Assembly: GCA_000002445.1 (NCBI GenBank)
Contig: CP000071.1
Span: 96,001 to 160,000 of the forward strand
Direction: 5' to 3'
Origin: Trypanosoma brucei
Lineage: Eukaryota
DNA length: 64,000 nt
Shown: piece by piece, positions 39,701-48,700 of the stretch
How positions within the stretch are numbered: position 1 is the stretch's first letter
How the letters are laid out: each line of letters opens with the position of its first letter
Made by a program: the position numbers

Positions 39701-42700
39701 CGACATCAGCGAGAACCCGCCCACCGCGGCTGCGCACGAACTCCATGCGACGGGGCACAAGCACTGCGATCTCTTTACCAAAACGGAAAAAGACAGCAAC
39801 AGCGAGAAGTCCTGTGCCCATACCAATTAAGCTACCAGCAACTATATCAGCGAAGTGATGGCGGTTGTCACGTGTTCGTGAGATGGCGCAAGCACATGCG
39901 AGGTAAATTGGAGAAAGGCCAACGAGTGTTCGCCACACGGATGCTCCACTGAACGCGTGTAAAACCGAGAGGAAGTATAGGGCCATCGGTGTGCAGACGG
40001 AGAAAGCGCAACTACTGTGCCCTGAAGGAAATGAAAGCCTGCCATCCCTTGCTTTTGCAATGTCACAGAGATCTTTTGGATCTGTTCCTTCCGTAACGTT
40101 AGCCTTTTTCAATCTATCAAGAAAATCAGGACGGAGTCGGCCAGCATAAACCTTCAATATTTCCACCAAACAAACGGCCAAAATAATAGAAAATCCGTGC
40201 GCCAGAACCCAGTAATTGGTGGCTTCAAGACATGTCATAAGTCTCTTTGGATCATTCTCTTTGTTCCCTTCTGGCGATTCGTCGGGGTATCTTCCAGCCT
40301 TAGCAGCATTTGCGCCTTCAGACCTCTTCCCTTCTGGCTCCAACATCTCTACCCGCGTAGTGGCTCCGTCTATGAGTTGATCAGTTTCTTTCACATCCAA
40401 GTACCACTCACCCTTCCGAGCCAAACGCGCACGCAAGGCTTCGAACAGCAGATAAAGTCCAATAGGTATAAATTCCATGGAAAACAGTGTTCCTGAGGGG
40501 AATGTGGACTTCCCCTTCTTATGACTTATGTCCGTGTCATTCCATGAGAATGTTCGGCAAGGTGGGCGGACAGTCCTCATTCCATACACAACAGCCAGTG
40601 CAAATGTCACAAGTAGAATGTAGTCCAGCGCATGAAATACCTTTATGTAGTACACAAATTTTGCGAACCCTGTCTTACCATCATCTGCCATCTTTTAACG
40701 CCTTGTTGTGCTCAATTAAGTAACGACGCTGCAAAACAGTTATCAAACAGCGGATAAAATAAAGGAGAACGGTACAAAGAATGCATGAACATATTCAAAT
40801 TCAAAAAAAAAGATTGCAACCCCTGCATGCAATACGCTTTAACTCAATATTCCGAAGCTTTTTATTGCTCTTTGTGGGATTGTCACTGGAAAGGTGTACT
40901 GTACGTATGCAACTTGATGATAATTCTATAAATCACATCATAGAATAAAAAGTCAAGCAGCATATAAATAAAACAGTGTTAAATCTAATTACAAGGCGTT
41001 TTTGGATACCTCCCGTGCATTTTCCATACTTCATAAGATCTGTAATGCATGTGTGTGAAGATATTATATATATATGCACTCCTATGCTCCCGATATGTCC
41101 AGGGACTGTGTAAATGAGGAAGAGGTATTCGCTGTTCCAGACTTCCTCCACAAGCACAGAAACCATATAATTCGCGATCACTTGTCCCTCCTATACAACA
41201 CTATCTCCTTACATCATCATTGTCATGGAGAAGAATGCTGCGCACACGGACATGCGCAACAGTTCTTTTCCACAACTAAAATACTAAAATCCCATAAAAA
41301 CAGCGAGTATACACTCATCGATACTCACACCAGCAGAGTCACACTACTAATTCCAACTGTAAATCTGTATAGTGGAGGAAGGGGCTGTCGTACAATGAAC
41401 CAAGTATCCTTAGCCCTCTTCAGCGGTCTGAACATAAACTCGGTTTTTGTGCAGCTTATCCGCATAGTGGGAAGAAAATGGTTTCCGCTTCACGCGTCCT
41501 CTGAAACACCATCTTTTCAATTATGCCAAGAACGTTACGCCTTTGTTTCAGGGTGTAGTGGGATACTTGCTTTACTATATCACTGATTAGTTTTATATTG
41601 AAAAAGAGTCTCTTGACTACTACCTTCTTTCCTGCAGCCGCCTCTGATCCAGACATTGTGCAGAGGTAATGTTGTCTAACGGAGAAGCATGAACCGTCAA
41701 TTTGAGAGTTGCTAATATCCTTTAATGGAAAAACCTACTATATTTGACCAACCATTTCAATTAAACTGTTGTGCTTAAATGTGGAAACCTGGCGCAGCGG
41801 TACGTACTTCACAGCGAGAAAAGAGTCCACATATTTGTGTTTAAGAGGAGAGAACATAGCATGTGTAGTTCAGATGCTAAACGCAAAGATACTTTAGCTC
41901 GATTTTGTTTAGCAGCAATAACATCAAAAATAAAAACAACGGATGAGCAAAAAGAGAAACGCATCTCCACGTGCAGCCTGTTAAACAGATATTTACAGCC
42001 ATCCAGAGGAAAACATTTCACCACAAATTTCAATTTTCAGCACCGCTAATAATCTGTCTAAAACAACCTCTAAAAATCAAAGATCGTAAACACAAATGAT
42101 TACCTTAATATTGTGTTGAATGACAATAAAAAATTGCTTTTCTAGACAACGATACTTCCACGCACCATCTTTTTAAACACTTGTAGTCCCCATAGTAGCT
42201 TCTAGCTTAATGATAGCGTACAACATAAAGAAATTCAATACATCCTTCTCCAAACATATATATATATATGTATGTGTGTGTTAATTTCCTTTAAACTTCA
42301 CTCCCCTCACTTCCTTATATACCAAACTTCCATACCTTATCTAACCCCATATGTTAAGTGTTACATTACTCCTAATTTTCAACGTTCCAGCAGTATTTCT
42401 TTCACGCTGTTCATAATTCTATAAGGCACCGCCCATCATATAGGGTAAACTATTTTTAACCTTTTAATTCTATTTTCTTACTTTGTACTATGTGTACATA
42501 GGTTATTATATGATGTATATGAAAATTGGTAAAAAGAAGCAACAGTTATATTCAATTCCGAGAACACCTCATGGTGTAAATATAAGTTTTTAAAACTAAT
42601 GATACCATTCGTTACGACACAAATATCCTCTCGAATATTACAACAATCTTATTTATACCTTTAAATTCTTAATAAATAAATAATTATATTATCGACAGTA

Positions 42701-45700: not shown

Positions 45701-48700
45701 ATACCTTTAAATTCTTAATAAATAAATAATTATATTATCGACAGTATTTCGTGATTATTCTTTGACGAATTCTTTTGGTCCACCCATGACGTTACCGTCA
45801 TACAACAATTTATTAAAAATAACATAAAATGCTTAGTAAAAAAAAGAAAATATTACCCTTATTTTTTTGAGGACTTGCGGTACCTTGTTTTACCAGGTTT
45901 TGAAAATCTTCATTATCATTCGCATATTCATCATCGGCATCAGCACCATGTTTGTCATCTATTCCTTCTTCGTGTGCATTCTCACTACTCAATATCGTTT
46001 TTCGTTTTTTTGCGGTTCTTTTTCTCTTTTTGTGTCGCCTTTTTTTTTCAACTTCAAGTTCTCTAGTCATATTCTCTTCTTCATTCCTGCTCTCTTCTGG
46101 CTCGTCGTCCTCGTTAACTTCCACTGCTTCTCCTTCAGTTGAAAGAATGTCAAGAGGACGAGTGGTGATAATGCACTTCCCTTTCGCAGGATCCCAGCTC
46201 TTGTACCTATTACCATTTTTTACCCTTCGCTCCATCTTTTTTAGCGACTCGTTTGTGCATTGGGTGACCGGAACCTTAGGTAATTCAACTTCGTCATCAA
46301 TGGTGCACTCTGGATTCACTCCCAAATAAATCCAGTCATCCATATCTTGTTCCAGCAATATGTGCTTCTCGTAAGACTTCCACTCGTTTGAATAGGAAGC
46401 AAAAACATTCCCCTTTTCGTCGACACCGCAACTCATTACCTTCCAAATCGGCAACTCATTCCCCCTATGGCAAAACATCTGCATACCCCTGTCATCTGCA
46501 AACGCGGAGCACAACCGTTTGGGTGTCCCGAGGTCATCGTAAAACAAGTGCTTAATTTTATCCCATTCCTCTTTATCCGCAGAGGACCCGAGAAAGCCGA
46601 GAATGAGCGCCAGTACTATGGTTTTCATATTGATCTCCTACTGACAAACACAGAAAAAATGCCCATATATTTTACCCAATACTCACTAACGTATTCGATA
46701 TACCTTCTCCCATGGTTGTAAGTAATTTTAGAAGAAAAGAAAAATAACAATTATCAAAAGGTTATATAACGCTCTTTTATTAGTTACTCCCTCTCGGCAC
46801 TCATAATACTCATCATCGGCCTCATCGCTGTTTTCACCTTTACGCCTGCATATTTTGGATTTACTCTTTTCACCTTTAACCTTTGAAACTTTAGTCTCCA
46901 CAATTACCTCTTCCTTCTTTCGTTTTTCTTTTTGATATCCAAACTCTTTTACACGATTCTTTTCTTCGCATTGATTTAAATCTTCATCCTCTTCAGTTGC
47001 ATCATACCTGGCAAAAGGCACATTTTCACTAGTGTTTGGCATTTGGGATTCCATAATGACGGACTTTATCTGAGTGCTTTCTTTGCTGCAGTTCCCTCCT
47101 ATTCGTTTGCATGTGCTTTCCATAGCACTTCCTGCAAGAGCCGCAAAAATGGTGGAAACAATTTGAGTGCCTACGCTTACACCTTGAGGTGGCGAGTAAA
47201 CATGGTTCAAGGCTATGATGCAGTGATTCTGATTTCTTAAACGCCACACCCGCATTGGACCAGTAGCTTCTGTACGCGGGGTTGCCGCGAAATGCGTAAT
47301 TGGGCTCCGACGTCAGCCCGGGACTGAACATTCTTGCTGCCACCAGGCAAATGGCATTTGCCTTTTATGTGGAAGCGCCCATACTGTCAGTGCTTTCGCT
47401 TCTCTACCATACGTTCTTTCCTTTGAAATTCCAGTGTTTCGTTTGTGCTTCAACTGTACTCTAAATGAAAATATAGTACCTATAGGGTGTTAGTCATATA
47501 ATTATGTTAAAGTACTATATTATATTTTTTACATGACAACGGTGAAGTGTTCAACATGTTTATGTCCAACGAGAGTCGCCGATGACGACGAGTACGCCAG
47601 ATGGCTGCGAGGCCCATATTGGGTCGAAAACCAAGATCTTGAGGGTGCTGTGGGTCGCATTAGCAGGTTGTTATTATTATCGCTTGCTCTCGTCTGGCAG
47701 TCGGTTACGGAAGATAATTTAGCCCTAACGGTGTCATATAATAATCTTACCAATTCAATGAGCTACGCTACTCCACTCTCTACACTCCTGCGCCTGTGTT
47801 TGGTTTTTGTGTCAACTTTAGATGGAAATGCTTTAGTGAAGCGGTCTATCATCCGCTTCTCAGTTTTAACTGTGGAGAGTTTTCCTTATCAAGCACCACA
47901 CGATCACGACTCCGGTATGTTTACTAACTTTCATCCCCTTTTGTTAATATTTATTTTTTGCAACCACCATGTGGCAAAGTGGATATGAGCTGCTCCTGTC
48001 TCCATCATTTCGCCATTGCGCCCTGTAATCACCCTTTCTAAATGTTGAATCACTTCTCGAGGACTCCTCGAAAAAAAAAAACCCTGACCATCACCATTCC
48101 CTCTCACTAACTCCCCTTCAAACTCTTATACATAGAGCGTGTAGCTGCACAAGACGGTGTTACACGTATTCGTCCGCCACGCGCAAGGAGAGCCTGCATC
48201 TCAACACTTTCAACCGTCAGCATTATCAGCTGTTTGACCACGGGCATCCCATGAAAATGCTTTCAAACTTCATGCAGGACGAACCAATCTCGGTGGAGCT
48301 GTAGTCGCTATGCACTTATGATTATACAAATGCACCCCTCGTTGTATTTCCAGTTGGCTTCCAAAACACACGAAAAAAAGGAGAGTGAATATGAAATATT
48401 CGAATCCATCACCGACGCATGAGCATTTGTAGTTGGAGCAGGCGCCAATGTCAACGATTCCTCCACAAGTATATAAAGATATATTATTTCACTCACCGGA
48501 AGTATTCATAGAAAGCAAGAAAAAGCATTAAGAGACCACACCTCAGGAGTCTTCACGCTGGAAAGGCTACTCCGCACATTCTTTACGGGCGCAATTGGCA
48601 CGTTCATGACCTTTTACCGCCCACCACCGAGAGGGGCATGTGGCTCCCAGGCGGTATTGTAGAAAAAAAATGCGGCGACAGCATCGAGTTAAAAACAAAC

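What the first reader, a model, noticed from the sequence alone, without database searches (positions are those of the whole stretch)
42165..47290. Tandem duplication of an unrecognised secreted/GPI-tail gene pair with identical flanks but a strongly diverged ectodomain core
Two roughly 3 kb tandem units each carry 'gene A' and 'gene B'. Both have a signal peptide, a Cys-framework ectodomain, a poly-acidic or basic low-complexity linker, and a C-terminal hydrophobic GPI-signal-like tail. In the two gene A copies, the intergenic DNA, the signal-peptide codons and the C-terminal tail are near-identical. The roughly 150-aa ectodomain between them is only about 30-35% identical, with its cysteines conserved. 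Conserved ends with a diversified core suggests a surface-protein family under diversifying selection or segmental replacement. I do not recognise these as VSG, ESAG1-12, ISG, procyclin/PAG or BARP. They sit at the boundary between the VSG array and the core, on the core-gene strand.
Basis: partly seen in the sequence, partly recalled or inferred. Interest (0 to 1): 0.75.

Follow-up and report, generated by a model that had tools for sequence, protein, structure and literature searches.

The report
Duplicated trypanosome orphan secretory gene pair
This is the already annotated Trypanosoma brucei chromosome 8 locus Tb927.8.490-.520: two anciently diverged copies of an orphan secreted-protein gene sit between flanks that recombination keeps almost identical, which is a tidy case of mosaic evolution but not a new gene family or mechanism.

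Summary
All the genes lie on the minus strand. They are Tb927.8.490 (A1), .500 (B1), .510 (A2) and .520 (B2), next to PAP2 (Tb927.8.480).

- **Repeat structure.** Unit 1 (42169-45211) is complete. Unit 2 (45212-47296) is partial, and B2 is a 5'-truncated remnant with no signal peptide.
- **Flanks.** They are 98.0% (651 nt) and 99.7% (721 nt) identical.
- **A cores.** They are truly homologous (z = 36). Identity is 28% at the amino-acid level and 49% at the nucleotide level, and all six cysteines align.
- **Age of the cores.** Synonymous sites are saturated (pS 0.68; 0 of 10 fourfold sites match). This rules out "recent duplication then rapid diversification".
- **Best reading.** A1 and A2 are ancient paralogues (or captured ancient alleles) whose flanks were recently homogenised. 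T. b. gambiense provides a direct gene-conversion signature.
- **Boundaries.** The identity boundaries fall at the predicted signal-peptide cleavage site and just after a plausible GPI attachment site, so only the mature protein differs.
- **Relatives.** No homologue exists outside Trypanozoon. There were no Pfam or PDB hits, and AlphaFold failed.
- **Prior literature.** The duplication (Carnes 2015) and the induction by iron starvation (Tiengwe 2021) are already published.

Function remains unknown. Interest is modest.

The parts
42169..42819 (-). Repeat X. It holds the last 16 codons plus the stop of A1 (42767-42819) and about 600 nt of downstream (3' UTR/intergenic) DNA.
   Evidence: 98.0% identical to 45212-45865. 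The proximal 420 nt is identical to X' except at 1 site, but differs from the gambiense orthologue at 12 sites. The distal 205 nt differs from X' at 10 sites.
42767..43618 (-). Gene A1 (positional Tb927.8.490), 283 aa. It has a signal peptide (1-17), a six-Cys domain (about 18-165), an acidic low-complexity linker (44 D/E in 87 aa) and a hydrophobic C-terminal tail.
   Evidence: ORF. 95% identical to BAC allele Tb08.27P2.90. Features.
42820..43565 (-). A1 diverged core. It corresponds to the whole predicted mature protein.
   Evidence: No blastn match to 45866-46575. pS 0.68 and pN 0.46 in the Cys domain. Boundaries are abrupt, changing within a few nucleotides.
43566..44286 (-). Repeat Y. It holds the signal-peptide codons of A1, the 99-nt B-A intergenic region (polypyrimidine tract plus AG 13 nt before the ATG), and the C-terminal 189 codons plus stop of B1.
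   Evidence: 99.7% identical (2 mismatches in 721 nt) to 46576-47296.
43718..44662 (-). Gene B1 (Tb927.8.500), 314 aa. It has a signal peptide, a six-Cys domain with the same C4-C5-C6 spacing as A, a K/E-rich linker and a hydrophobic tail.
   Evidence: Exact match to XP_846888. Features. Alignment to A.
44287..45211 (-). Segment Z. It is unique to unit 1 and holds the 5' 125 codons of B1 and its upstream region.
   Evidence: No second copy anywhere in the window. Present in T. equiperdum scaffold L002.
45212..45865 (-). Repeat X'. It holds the tail codons of A2 and its downstream region.
   Evidence: The distal part is identical to the single gambiense X.
45813..46628 (-). Gene A2 (Tb927.8.510), 271 aa. 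It has the same architecture as A1 but a mixed-charge linker.
   Evidence: Exact match to XP_846889. Features.
46576..47296 (-). Repeat Y'. It contains the truncated gene B2 (Tb927.8.520; 46728-47255, 175 aa, no signal peptide).
   Evidence: Homology to B1 ends at 47296/47297.
39693..40691 (-). PAP2-family phosphatase (Tb927.8.480). It is the co-regulated downstream neighbour and the last gene before the convergent strand switch.
   Evidence: Pfam PF01569, E = 4e-28. Exact match. Co-induction with .490/.510 is reported in PMC8259959, PMC3121479 and PMC3332058.

Best explanation
**What it is.** The locus is Tb927.8.480-.520 of T. brucei TREU927 chromosome 8. It lies at the end of a minus-strand transcription unit that runs into a VSG array. 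It holds a B-A gene pair that is present one and two-thirds times.

**The proteins.** A and B encode orphan secretory-pathway proteins found only in Trypanozoon. Each has a cleavable signal peptide, a small six-cysteine domain of about 120-140 aa, a long highly charged low-complexity linker, and a 12-14-residue C-terminal hydrophobic segment. That segment looks like a GPI-addition signal.

**How the pattern arose.** A1 and A2 are ancient homologues. Everything that would remain in the mature protein diverged long ago, and synonymous sites are saturated. The DNA on either side is kept nearly identical by recent gene conversion and unequal crossing-over between the repeats. On one side this DNA comprises the 3' half of B, the 99-nt intergenic region with the splice-acceptor signals, and the signal-peptide codons. 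On the other side it comprises the tail codons and at least 400 nt of 3' UTR. Conversion tracts stop where homology stops, which is why the boundaries are sharp.

**Inferred consequence.** The two different ectodomains are expressed with the same RNA-processing and 3' UTR signals and the same targeting peptides. This fits their published co-induction. The same repeats make the locus vary in copy number. DAL972 carries a single A2 unit whose downstream repeat is X'-type along its distal part, up to about 15 nt from the end of homology. That is consistent with a deletion by X'/X crossover.

**Shown here.**
- The anatomy.
- The homology of the cores.
- Saturation at synonymous sites.
- The conversion signature.
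- The absence of outside homologues.

**Inferred.**
- GPI anchoring.
- That the shared 3' UTR causes the co-regulation.
- Whether the cores diverged in place or as alleles.

The biochemical function is unknown. My best guess is a stress- or differentiation-induced glycoprotein of the surface or endosomal system, displayed on a disordered charged stalk.
For: **Identity of the locus**
- Exact protein matches to Tb927.8.480.500.510 and .520.

**Flanks against core**
- Flanks are 98.0% and 99.7% identical. The core gives no blastn hit.
- The base-by-base alignment shows the switch occurring within a few nucleotides at 43568 and 42819.
- The cores are homologous: z = 35.6, or 23.8 with cysteines masked. 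BLASTP gives E = 3e-42.

**Ancient divergence**
- Nei-Gojobori on the Cys domain gives pS 0.684, pN 0.464, dS about 1.8 and a ratio of about 0.4.
- Of 39 identical residues, only 20 use the same codon.
- 0 of 10 fourfold-degenerate sites match.

**Gene conversion**
- In X at 42400-42819, the two TREU927 paralogues differ at 1 site, but both differ from the DAL972 orthologue at 12 sites.
- In X at 42186-42390, X' is identical to DAL972 while X differs at 10 sites, including a 2-nt indel.
- In the second TREU927 haplotype (BAC 27P2), B1 and B2 share a haplotype-specific A-to-V change. The paralogue-specific D/Y difference is kept in both haplotypes.

**Copy-number variation**
- DAL972 has W-B2-A2-X-PAP2 only.
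- Carnes 2015 reports .490/.500 absent or disrupted in T. evansi STIB805.

**Protein features**
- Hydrophobic N- and C-termini, six Cys, sequons and linker composition.

**Co-regulation**
- Iron starvation raises PAP2 about 7-fold and the two hypothetical genes about 3- and 6-fold. RBP5 pulls down Hyp2 mRNA (PMC8259959).
- The genes also rise after ZC3H20 RNAi, CTR9 depletion and I-BET151 treatment or differentiation.
Against: - The saturated dS makes the dN/dS value unreliable. It shows only that the divergence is old.
- No homologue was found in T. congolense or T. vivax. An 'ancient' split therefore requires loss or unrecognisable divergence elsewhere, or an unusually high local mutation rate.
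- The gene-conversion inference rests on about 25 informative sites and a single outgroup haplotype.
- The deletion breakpoint in DAL972 rests on 2-3 sites at the very end of X.
- GPI anchoring, surface location and translation of B were not tested here. Tiengwe et al. cite TrypTag only for 'secretory pathway compartments'.
- Co-regulation could instead reflect the position at the end of the transcription unit next to silent VSG chromatin, rather than the shared 3' UTR.
Confidence: 0.72

Rival explanations
1. Ancient allelic dimorphism captured in tandem. On this reading A1 and A2 were originally two old allelic forms of one locus, with cores kept apart by balancing selection and flanks mixed by sexual recombination. 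A non-homologous unequal exchange between homologues then placed both on one chromosome. Single-unit strains would represent the older state or a reversion to it.
For: - It explains in one step why the duplicate cores are saturated while the flanks are similar.
- The region carries unusually deep haplotypes. PAP2 pS is 0.088 between TREU927 and DAL972, against 0.005 in the gene at 55.6-57.3 kb. The two TREU927 A1 alleles differ at 15 of 283 positions.
- DAL972 has only A2.
- T. equiperdum scaffold L002 has a gap-free piece joining W-Y' to an A1 core. That places A1 in the position A2 occupies in TREU927.
Against: - Both TREU927 haplotypes already carry all four genes.
- L002 is a short-read scaffold with N gaps, and the W-Y'-A1 join may be a collapsed-repeat chimera. 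The same scaffold also contains Z and the X'-Z junction.
- No strain with a verified single A1 unit was seen.
- The distal part of X differs from X' by about 5%, which is equally compatible with old paralogy.
Confidence: 0.15
2. Recent whole-unit duplication followed by replacement of one A core by gene conversion from a diverged family member elsewhere in the genome. This would be VSG-style cassette replacement using the signal-peptide and tail/3' UTR homology.
For: - The breakpoints are sharp and lie at the edges of short conserved coding ends.
- The locus abuts a VSG array, where segmental conversion is routine. That it is routine there is established knowledge of VSG switching.
Against: - No third family member exists in any searched protein collection. 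Only A1-type, A2-type and B-type sequences were found.
- No further copy lies in the 64-kb window.
- Flank divergence is heterogeneous, from 0.2% to 5%. A single recent duplication does not fit this.
- Unannotated subtelomeric pseudogenes could not be searched.
Confidence: 0.08
3. Recent tandem duplication followed by rapid diversifying (positive) selection on the ectodomain. This is the first reader's first option and the 'duplication followed by diversification' wording of Carnes 2015.
For: - The between-strain N:S ratio in the A2 Cys domain is elevated: 10:3 with dN/dS 0.8, against 6:21 in PAP2 (Fisher p = 0.0017).
- Cysteines are conserved while the rest of the domain varies.
Against: - Synonymous and fourfold-degenerate sites in the core are as diverged as random sequence: pS 0.68, 0 of 10 fourfold sites, 49% nucleotide identity, with several indels.
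- The adjoining 650-720 nt differ by only 0.3-2%. Selection on protein sequence cannot produce this.
- The paralogue dN/dS is about 0.4.
Confidence: 0.03
4. Two unrelated genes that merely share recombined ends, or an assembly artefact of a collapsed or expanded repeat.
For: The coding ends are short (51 and 48 nt), and the interiors give no nucleotide match.
Against: - Core-only protein homology gives z = 35.6, with six aligned cysteines and 42 invariant columns.
- The same four genes occur in an independent BAC-derived haplotype (Tb08.27P2.60-.90).
- The A1 core, Z and the X'-Z junction occur in T. equiperdum.
Confidence: 0.01

Closest known systems
Tb927.8.490/.500/.510/.520 as annotated ('T. 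brucei spp.-specific protein', hypothetical), and as described by Carnes et al. 2015 (PMC4288722) and Tiengwe et al. 2021 (PMC8259959)
   Same: It is the same locus. A2, B1, B2 and PAP2 are exact protein matches. The relatedness of .490 to .510 and of .500 to .520, the segmental duplication, the absence of .490/.500 from T. evansi STIB805 and DAL972, and the iron-starvation induction are all published.
   Different: The publications do not, in the text I could read, report any of the following:
- the near-identical flanks against a synonymous-saturated core;
- the coincidence of the boundaries with the targeting peptides;
- the truncation of .520;
- the gene-conversion signature;
- the possible A-B relationship.
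T. brucei-specific surface-phylome families Fam4-7 of Jackson et al. 2013 (PMC3605285)
   Same: They are the same kind of gene: species-specific hypothetical proteins with a signal peptide (some with a GPI signal), arranged in tandem and lying next to strand-switch regions.
   Different: The example genes for Fam1-9 in Table S1 are on other chromosomes, and the held supplement does not list .490-.520. The exhaustive profile search found no relative other than A1, A2 and B1, so this is not a detectable member of those families. With 2 A genes and 1.6 B genes it is probably below the phylome's family-size threshold (my inference).
Concerted evolution limited to flanks, or dimorphic-core genes. 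Examples are VSG cassettes with conserved 70-bp-repeat and C-terminal/3' UTR homology, and Plasmodium MSP-type allelic dimorphism with conserved ends.
   Same: Conserved ends provide recombination homology around a deeply diverged antigenic or functional core. The breakpoints are sharp and copy number varies.
   Different: - Only two core types are known here.
- There is no evidence of switching or of expression-site use.
- The conserved ends include whole UTRs and half of the neighbouring gene.
- This comparison rests on my general knowledge and was not tested here.
ESAG9 (Fam2), PAG, ISG, ESAG1, procyclin, VSG
   Same: They share a signal peptide, small size, association with VSG-proximal regions, and induction on differentiation or stress together with PAGs.
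   Different: No Pfam match at E <= 1 to VSG_A/B, ESAG1, procyclin or any other family. No T. brucei protein other than A1, A2 and B1 was retrieved by profile HMM from 1.84 billion representatives.

Membership tests
Annotated locus Tb927.8.490-.520 (T. brucei TREU927 chr 8) | Protein sequences identical to the deposited gene products, in the same order next to PAP2 (Tb927.8.480) | tested here: met
   Exact matches for .480.500 (from the ATG at 44662).510 and .520. A1 is not an exact match to any stored sequence. It is 95% identical to BAC allele Tb08.27P2.90 and sits at the .490 position.
VSG / VSG-related (Fam0, Fam1, Fam9) | Match to Pfam Trypan_glycop (PF00913), VSG_B (PF13206) or Trypan_glycop_C (PF10659) | tested here: not met
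   No such hit at E <= 1 for A1, A2, B1 or B2. The neighbouring VSG ORFs hit these models at 1e-30 to 1e-74.
ESAG9 (Fam2), PAG, ISG, BARP, ESAG1 and other characterised T. brucei surface families | Detectable sequence homology to a family member | tested here: not met
   A profile HMM of the A/B domain searched against 1.84 billion representatives returned only A1, A2 and B1, plus five cysteine-free bacterial repeat proteins that I judge spurious. The word-indexed searches gave the same result. A direct pairwise test against a named ESAG9 sequence was not possible, because no sequence was retrievable by accession.
Jackson 2013 cell-surface phylome Fam4-7 | Listed membership in the phylome clusters | not testable with these tools
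   Only Table S1, which gives one example ID per family, is held. It has no chr 8 .490-.520 entry. Full member lists are not available.
GPI-anchored protein | N-terminal signal peptide | tested here: met
   In A1, A2 and B1 the Kyte-Doolittle 11-residue mean exceeds 1.8 over residues 1-17 or 1-20, followed by SSA|E/D (A) or CNG|E (B). B2 has none. This is a rule-of-thumb reading; SignalP was not available.
GPI-anchored protein | C-terminal signal: a small omega residue, a spacer of about 8 residues, then a hydrophobic stretch of 10-20 residues ending the protein | tested here: inconclusive
   The tails IFFFLLSILCYF (A) and LYNLLIIVIFLFF (B) end the proteins. Plausible omega sites (N-N-G in A1, G-T-A in A2) lie 22-23 residues from the end (read by eye). 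No GPI predictor or experiment was available. A tail-anchor is not excluded.
One A/B superfamily (A and B as distant paralogues) | Statistically supported homology of the Cys domains | tested here: inconclusive
   BLASTP of B1 against A2 gives E = 0.006. hhalign gives P = 0.0012 but a probability of 20%. The Smith-Waterman z-score is 2.9 and vanishes when Cys is masked. In favour: all six Cys align, the C4-C5-C6 spacing is identical, and the CxAF, Wx4C, Cx3ExG and NPxC motifs are shared. The AlphaFold models were too poor to compare (pLDDT 40 and 34).

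The most novel reading that the evidence does not exclude
The two deeply diverged A ectodomains may be maintained as alternative 'cassettes' between recombinogenic flanks, as ancient balanced types that can be swapped, lost or combined between units and haplotypes. 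On this reading they give T. brucei strains different versions of a stress- or iron-starvation-induced surface or endosomal ligand-binding protein, possibly acting together with the distantly related B protein. This would be a small, non-VSG analogue of the host-adapted variation seen in the ESAG6/7 transferrin receptor.
Probability: 0.1. Interest if true: 0.6.

Novelty: already known. Interest (0 to 1): 0.3.

Why it matters
The locus is a clean, compact example of how recombination shapes trypanosome surface-type genes outside the VSG system. The regulatory and targeting sequences are homogenised while the mature protein is kept in two ancient forms. The same repeats generate presence/absence variation among T. 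brucei subspecies.

The practical consequences are as follows.

- **Read mapping.** RNA-seq and qPCR signals for .490/.510 and .500/.520 can be partly confounded, because the UTRs, the signal and tail codons, and 570 nt of B coding sequence are about 98-100% identical.
- **Tb927.8.520.** It is best treated as a truncated remnant.
- **The published description.** 'Duplication followed by diversification' should be replaced by 'old paralogues or alleles with converted flanks'.

The genes are among the few transcripts induced by iron starvation, so their function is worth testing. Nothing here reveals a new mechanism.

Tried and rejected
- **Pfam.** A scan of A1, A2, B1 and B2 at E <= 1 gave only low-complexity noise.
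- **Word-indexed protein searches.** Two searches of 5.8 billion proteins, using full A1 and then the A/B ectodomain alignment, returned only the locus's own products.
- **Exhaustive profile search.** The HMM search of 1.84 billion representatives gave five extra hits (E = 1e-9 to 6e-4). These are bacterial Ig-like repeat proteins without cysteines that match a 'YSxxxKxWKxY' stretch several times. I rejected them as spurious.
- **PDB sequence search.** Nothing below E = 0.1.
- **AlphaFold2.** The A2 ectodomain (4-sequence alignment) and the B1 ectodomain (5 sequences) gave mean pLDDT of 40 and 34. I therefore ran no fold search, as it would have been meaningless.
- **Exact-sequence contig look-ups.** Look-ups for A1, P0001, P0002, P0007 and PAP2 found nothing. 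Only B2 gave loci, in DAL972 and T. equiperdum.
- **The T. equiperdum scaffold.** It first looked like a 300-nt insertion in B, but the junction is a 10-N scaffold gap, so I dropped that reading.
- **Alternative gene IDs.** A literature search returned nothing.
- **The Jackson 2013 supplement.** It does not list the genes.
- **Other copies.** A search for further copies of the unit or of A/B-like coding sequence in the window found none.

Full report
**1. What is in the sequence**

All ORFs of the finding lie on the minus strand. In the direction of transcription, from high to low coordinates, they are:

| Name | Coordinates | Length | Note |
|---|---|---|---|
| B2 | 46728-47255 | 175 aa | truncated |
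| A2 | 45813-46628 | 271 aa | |
| B1 | 43718-44662 | 314 aa | counted from the ATG |
| A1 | 42767-43618 | 283 aa | |
| PAP2-family phosphatase | 39693-40691 | 332 aa | Pfam PF01569, E = 4e-28 |

blastn of the region against itself gives exactly two repeats:

- X (42169-42819) matches X' (45212-45865) at 98.0% over about 651 nt.
- Y (43566-44286) matches Y' (46576-47296) at 99.7% over 721 nt.

Nothing else in the 64-kb window matches the unit. The A interiors (42820-43565 and 45866-46575) give no nucleotide match. Segment Z (44287-45211) holds the 5' 125 codons of B1 and its upstream DNA. It exists only once.

Unit 1 is therefore a complete 3,043-nt unit. Unit 2 is a 2,085-nt partial unit.

**2. 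Identity of the locus**

A2, B1, B2 and PAP2 are exact matches to Tb927.8.510.500.520 and .480 of T. brucei TREU927. A1 occupies the Tb927.8.490 position. It is 95% identical to Tb08.27P2.90, the product of a BAC from the other TREU927 haplotype. That BAC carries all four genes.

- Intact and degenerate VSG genes lie on the + strand from 1 to 31 kb (Pfam VSG_B, Trypan_glycop).
- A broken ingi-type retrotransposon lies at 32.3-36.8 kb.
- A relic of a VSG 3' end lies at 38.0-38.5 kb on the + strand.
- The minus-strand genes follow. PAP2 and the A/B genes are thus the last genes of a transcription unit that converges on the VSG array.
- Upstream of B2 lie decayed sequence with LRR pseudogene fragments (52.5-53.2 kb) and a 2,451-aa VPS13/ATG2-like gene.

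**3. The A genes**

The first 17 codons (MKTIVLALILGFLGSSA) and the last 16 codons (NKGNIFFFLLSILCYF) are identical. The base-by-base alignment shows identity dropping from 30/30 to about 15/30 within a few nucleotides at both ends.

The interiors are nevertheless homologous:

- Whole proteins give BLASTP E = 3e-42.
- The core alone gives a Smith-Waterman z-score of 35.6 against 2000 shuffles, and 23.8 with cysteines masked.
- Forty-two columns are invariant, including all six cysteines.
- Over the 138 aligned codons of the Cys domain, identity is 28% (amino acid) and 49% (nucleotide).

This removes the 'unrelated genes with shared ends' reading.

**4. Age of the divergence**

Nei-Gojobori counts on the Cys domain give pS = 0.684, pN = 0.464, dS about 1.8 and dN about 0.72. 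Of 39 identical residues, only 20 use the same codon. At fourfold-degenerate codons of identical residues, 0 of 10 third positions agree.

Synonymous sites are therefore saturated, so the ratio of about 0.4 is only indicative. Meanwhile the adjoining 650-720 nt differ by 0.3-2%.

Protein-level diversifying selection after a recent duplication cannot produce this. The cores are old and the flanks are young.

**5. Evidence that the flanks are young because of recombination**

The T. b. gambiense DAL972 locus (L001) has a single unit, W-B2-A2-X-PAP2. I aligned the three X copies.

- In the 420 nt next to the stop codon, the two TREU927 paralogues differ at 1 site. Both differ from DAL972 at 12 sites.
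- In the distal 205 nt, X' is identical to DAL972. X differs at 10 sites, including a 2-nt indel.

So the paralogy is older than the TREU927/DAL972 haplotype split, and the proximal part was converted afterwards.

The Y copies have few informative sites, but they show the same mixture. In both TREU927 haplotypes B1 has D and B2 has Y at one position, which is paralogue-specific. An A/V difference is haplotype-specific and shared by B1 and B2.

DAL972's X is X'-type to within about 15 nt of the end of homology and then X-type. This fits loss of unit 1 by X'/X unequal crossover, but it rests on very few sites.

Carnes et al. 2015 report .490/.500 absent or disrupted in T. evansi STIB805 and not annotated in DAL972.

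A T. equiperdum scaffold (L002) contains Z, the X'-Z junction, and a gap-free piece joining W-Y' to an A1 core. Because the scaffold has N gaps and Y is a 721-nt repeat, this may be a chimera.

**6. Where the boundaries fall**

The 5' boundary follows the SSA motif that ends the hydrophobic N-terminal segment. This is the expected signal-peptidase site.

The 3' boundary lies 16 residues from the C-terminus. Plausible GPI omega triplets (N-N-G in A1, G-T-A in A2) lie 22-23 residues from the end (read by eye).

If these predictions hold, every residue of the mature protein lies in the diverged part, and only the cleaved targeting peptides are shared. No signal-peptide or GPI predictor was available, so this is inference.

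**7. Gene B**

B1 has the following features:

- a signal peptide;
- a cysteine-containing domain;
- a K/E-rich linker;
- a hydrophobic tail.

B2 begins at an internal ATG. Upstream of 47296 the sequence is unrelated to B1. B2 therefore lacks the signal peptide and five of the six domain cysteines, and is best read as a remnant.

Only 99 nt separate the B stop from the A start. A polypyrimidine tract and an AG lie 13 nt before the ATG, so any B mRNA must have a very short 3' UTR.

A and B may be distant paralogues.

- In favour: six cysteines align, the C4-C5-C6 spacing is identical, and the CxAF, Wx4C, Cx3ExG and NPxC motifs are shared.
- The statistics are marginal: BLASTP E = 0.006, hhalign P = 0.0012 at 20% probability, and z = 2.9, which vanishes when cysteines are masked.

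I treat the relationship as probable but not established.

**8. Relatives and structure**

- No Pfam family matched.
- Two word-indexed searches of 5.8 billion proteins returned only the locus's own products.
- An exhaustive profile search of 1.84 billion representatives returned A1, A2 and B1, plus five cysteine-free bacterial repeat proteins that I judge spurious.
- There was no PDB sequence match.
- The AlphaFold2 models had mean pLDDT of 40 and 34, so I made no fold comparison.
- Table S1 of the Jackson 2013 phylome does not list these genes. Its description of Fam4-7 (species-specific, signal peptide, tandem, next to strand switches) fits the kind of gene.

**9. Polymorphism**

Between TREU927 and DAL972:

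| Region | Non-synonymous : synonymous | Note |
|---|---|---|
| A2 Cys domain | 10 : 3 | ratio 0.8 |
| A2 linker and tail | 1 : 3 | |
| PAP2 | 6 : 21 | pS = 0.088 |

Fisher's exact test for the Cys domain against PAP2 gives p = 0.0017. The ectodomain is therefore less constrained than its neighbour, but positive selection is not demonstrated.

The whole block from about 54.5 kb leftwards is 3.4-4% diverged between the two subspecies. The next gene to the right is only 1.1% diverged.

**10. What is published about expression**

- Tiengwe et al. 2021 report that PAP2 (about 7-fold) and the two hypothetical genes .490 and .510 (about 3- and 6-fold) rise on TfR knock-down.
- They also report that RBP5 pulls down PAP2 and .510 mRNA, and they cite TrypTag for a secretory-pathway location.
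- .480/.510 rise on ZC3H20 RNAi in procyclics together with PAGs.
- They also rise on CTR9 depletion.
- .480/.520 rise with bromodomain inhibition and differentiation.

The genes share identical UTR and coding segments, so some of these signals cannot be assigned to one copy.

**11. Verdict**

However, the second unit is partial, the genes are annotated, and the duplication is already in the literature.

The interpretation needs changing. The pattern is not post-duplication diversification. It is a mosaic of ancient cores and recently homogenised flanks. The two leading variants are old paralogues with flank-limited concerted evolution, which I favour, and ancient alleles captured in tandem.

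Function remains unknown. The most defensible statement is that A1, A2 and B1 are orphan secretory, probably GPI-signal-bearing, glycoproteins. They are induced by stress or differentiation, and the two ectodomain forms of A are expressed under identical control and targeting sequences.

Noticed in passing
window 32300-36845 (-): An ingi-type non-LTR retrotransposon split into three ORFs (706, 404 and 396 aa). They carry RNase H, reverse transcriptase and endonuclease domains. It lies between the VSG array and PAP2.
   Followed up: partly
window 38041-38530 (+): A relic of a VSG 3' end or downstream element, 66-90% identical to the ends of VSG genes at 11.6, 14.3, 17.6 and 30.9 kb. It places the convergent strand switch within about 1.2 kb of the PAP2 stop codon.
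   Followed up: partly
window 33742-54493 vs L001 (DAL972 chr 8): Divergence between TREU927 and T. b. gambiense jumps from 1.1% (54522-57315) to 3.4-4% across the whole A/B-PAP2-ingi block. PAP2 pS is 0.088, against 0.005 in the neighbouring 2,451-aa gene. The two TREU927 A1 alleles also differ at 15 of 283 positions. This suggests deep haplotypes near the VSG array.
   Followed up: partly
L002 1143-2791 (T. equiperdum OVI scaffold CZPT02001948): A gap-free piece joins W (window 47598-47297), a Y'-type repeat and an A1-type core. This combination is absent from TREU927. It is either a real recombinant haplotype or a collapsed-repeat assembly chimera. The other pieces of the scaffold are separated by 10-N gaps.
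   Followed up: partly
window 43619-43717 and 46629-46727 (-): Only 99 nt separate the stop codon of B from the ATG of A. A polypyrimidine tract and an AG lie 13 nt before the ATG. This is unusually tight for a trypanosome intergenic region and leaves B almost no 3' UTR.
   Followed up: no
window 52507-53247 (-): Leucine-rich-repeat ORF fragments (LRR_4 and LRR_EndoS hits), probably a decayed LRRP/ESAG8-like pseudogene in the gene-poor stretch upstream of B2.
   Followed up: no
window 47533-47988 (+): A 151-aa ORF antisense to the transcription unit is called as a gene in DAL972 (L001 9268-9723). It has no Pfam match and lies in the sequence that truncates B2, so it is probably not a real gene.
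   Followed up: no
window 42966-43082 (-): The acidic tract of A1 is encoded by an imperfect 9-12-nt GAT/GAA/GAG repeat. Its length differs between the two TREU927 alleles (283 vs 281 aa) and from the T. equiperdum copy.
   Followed up: no
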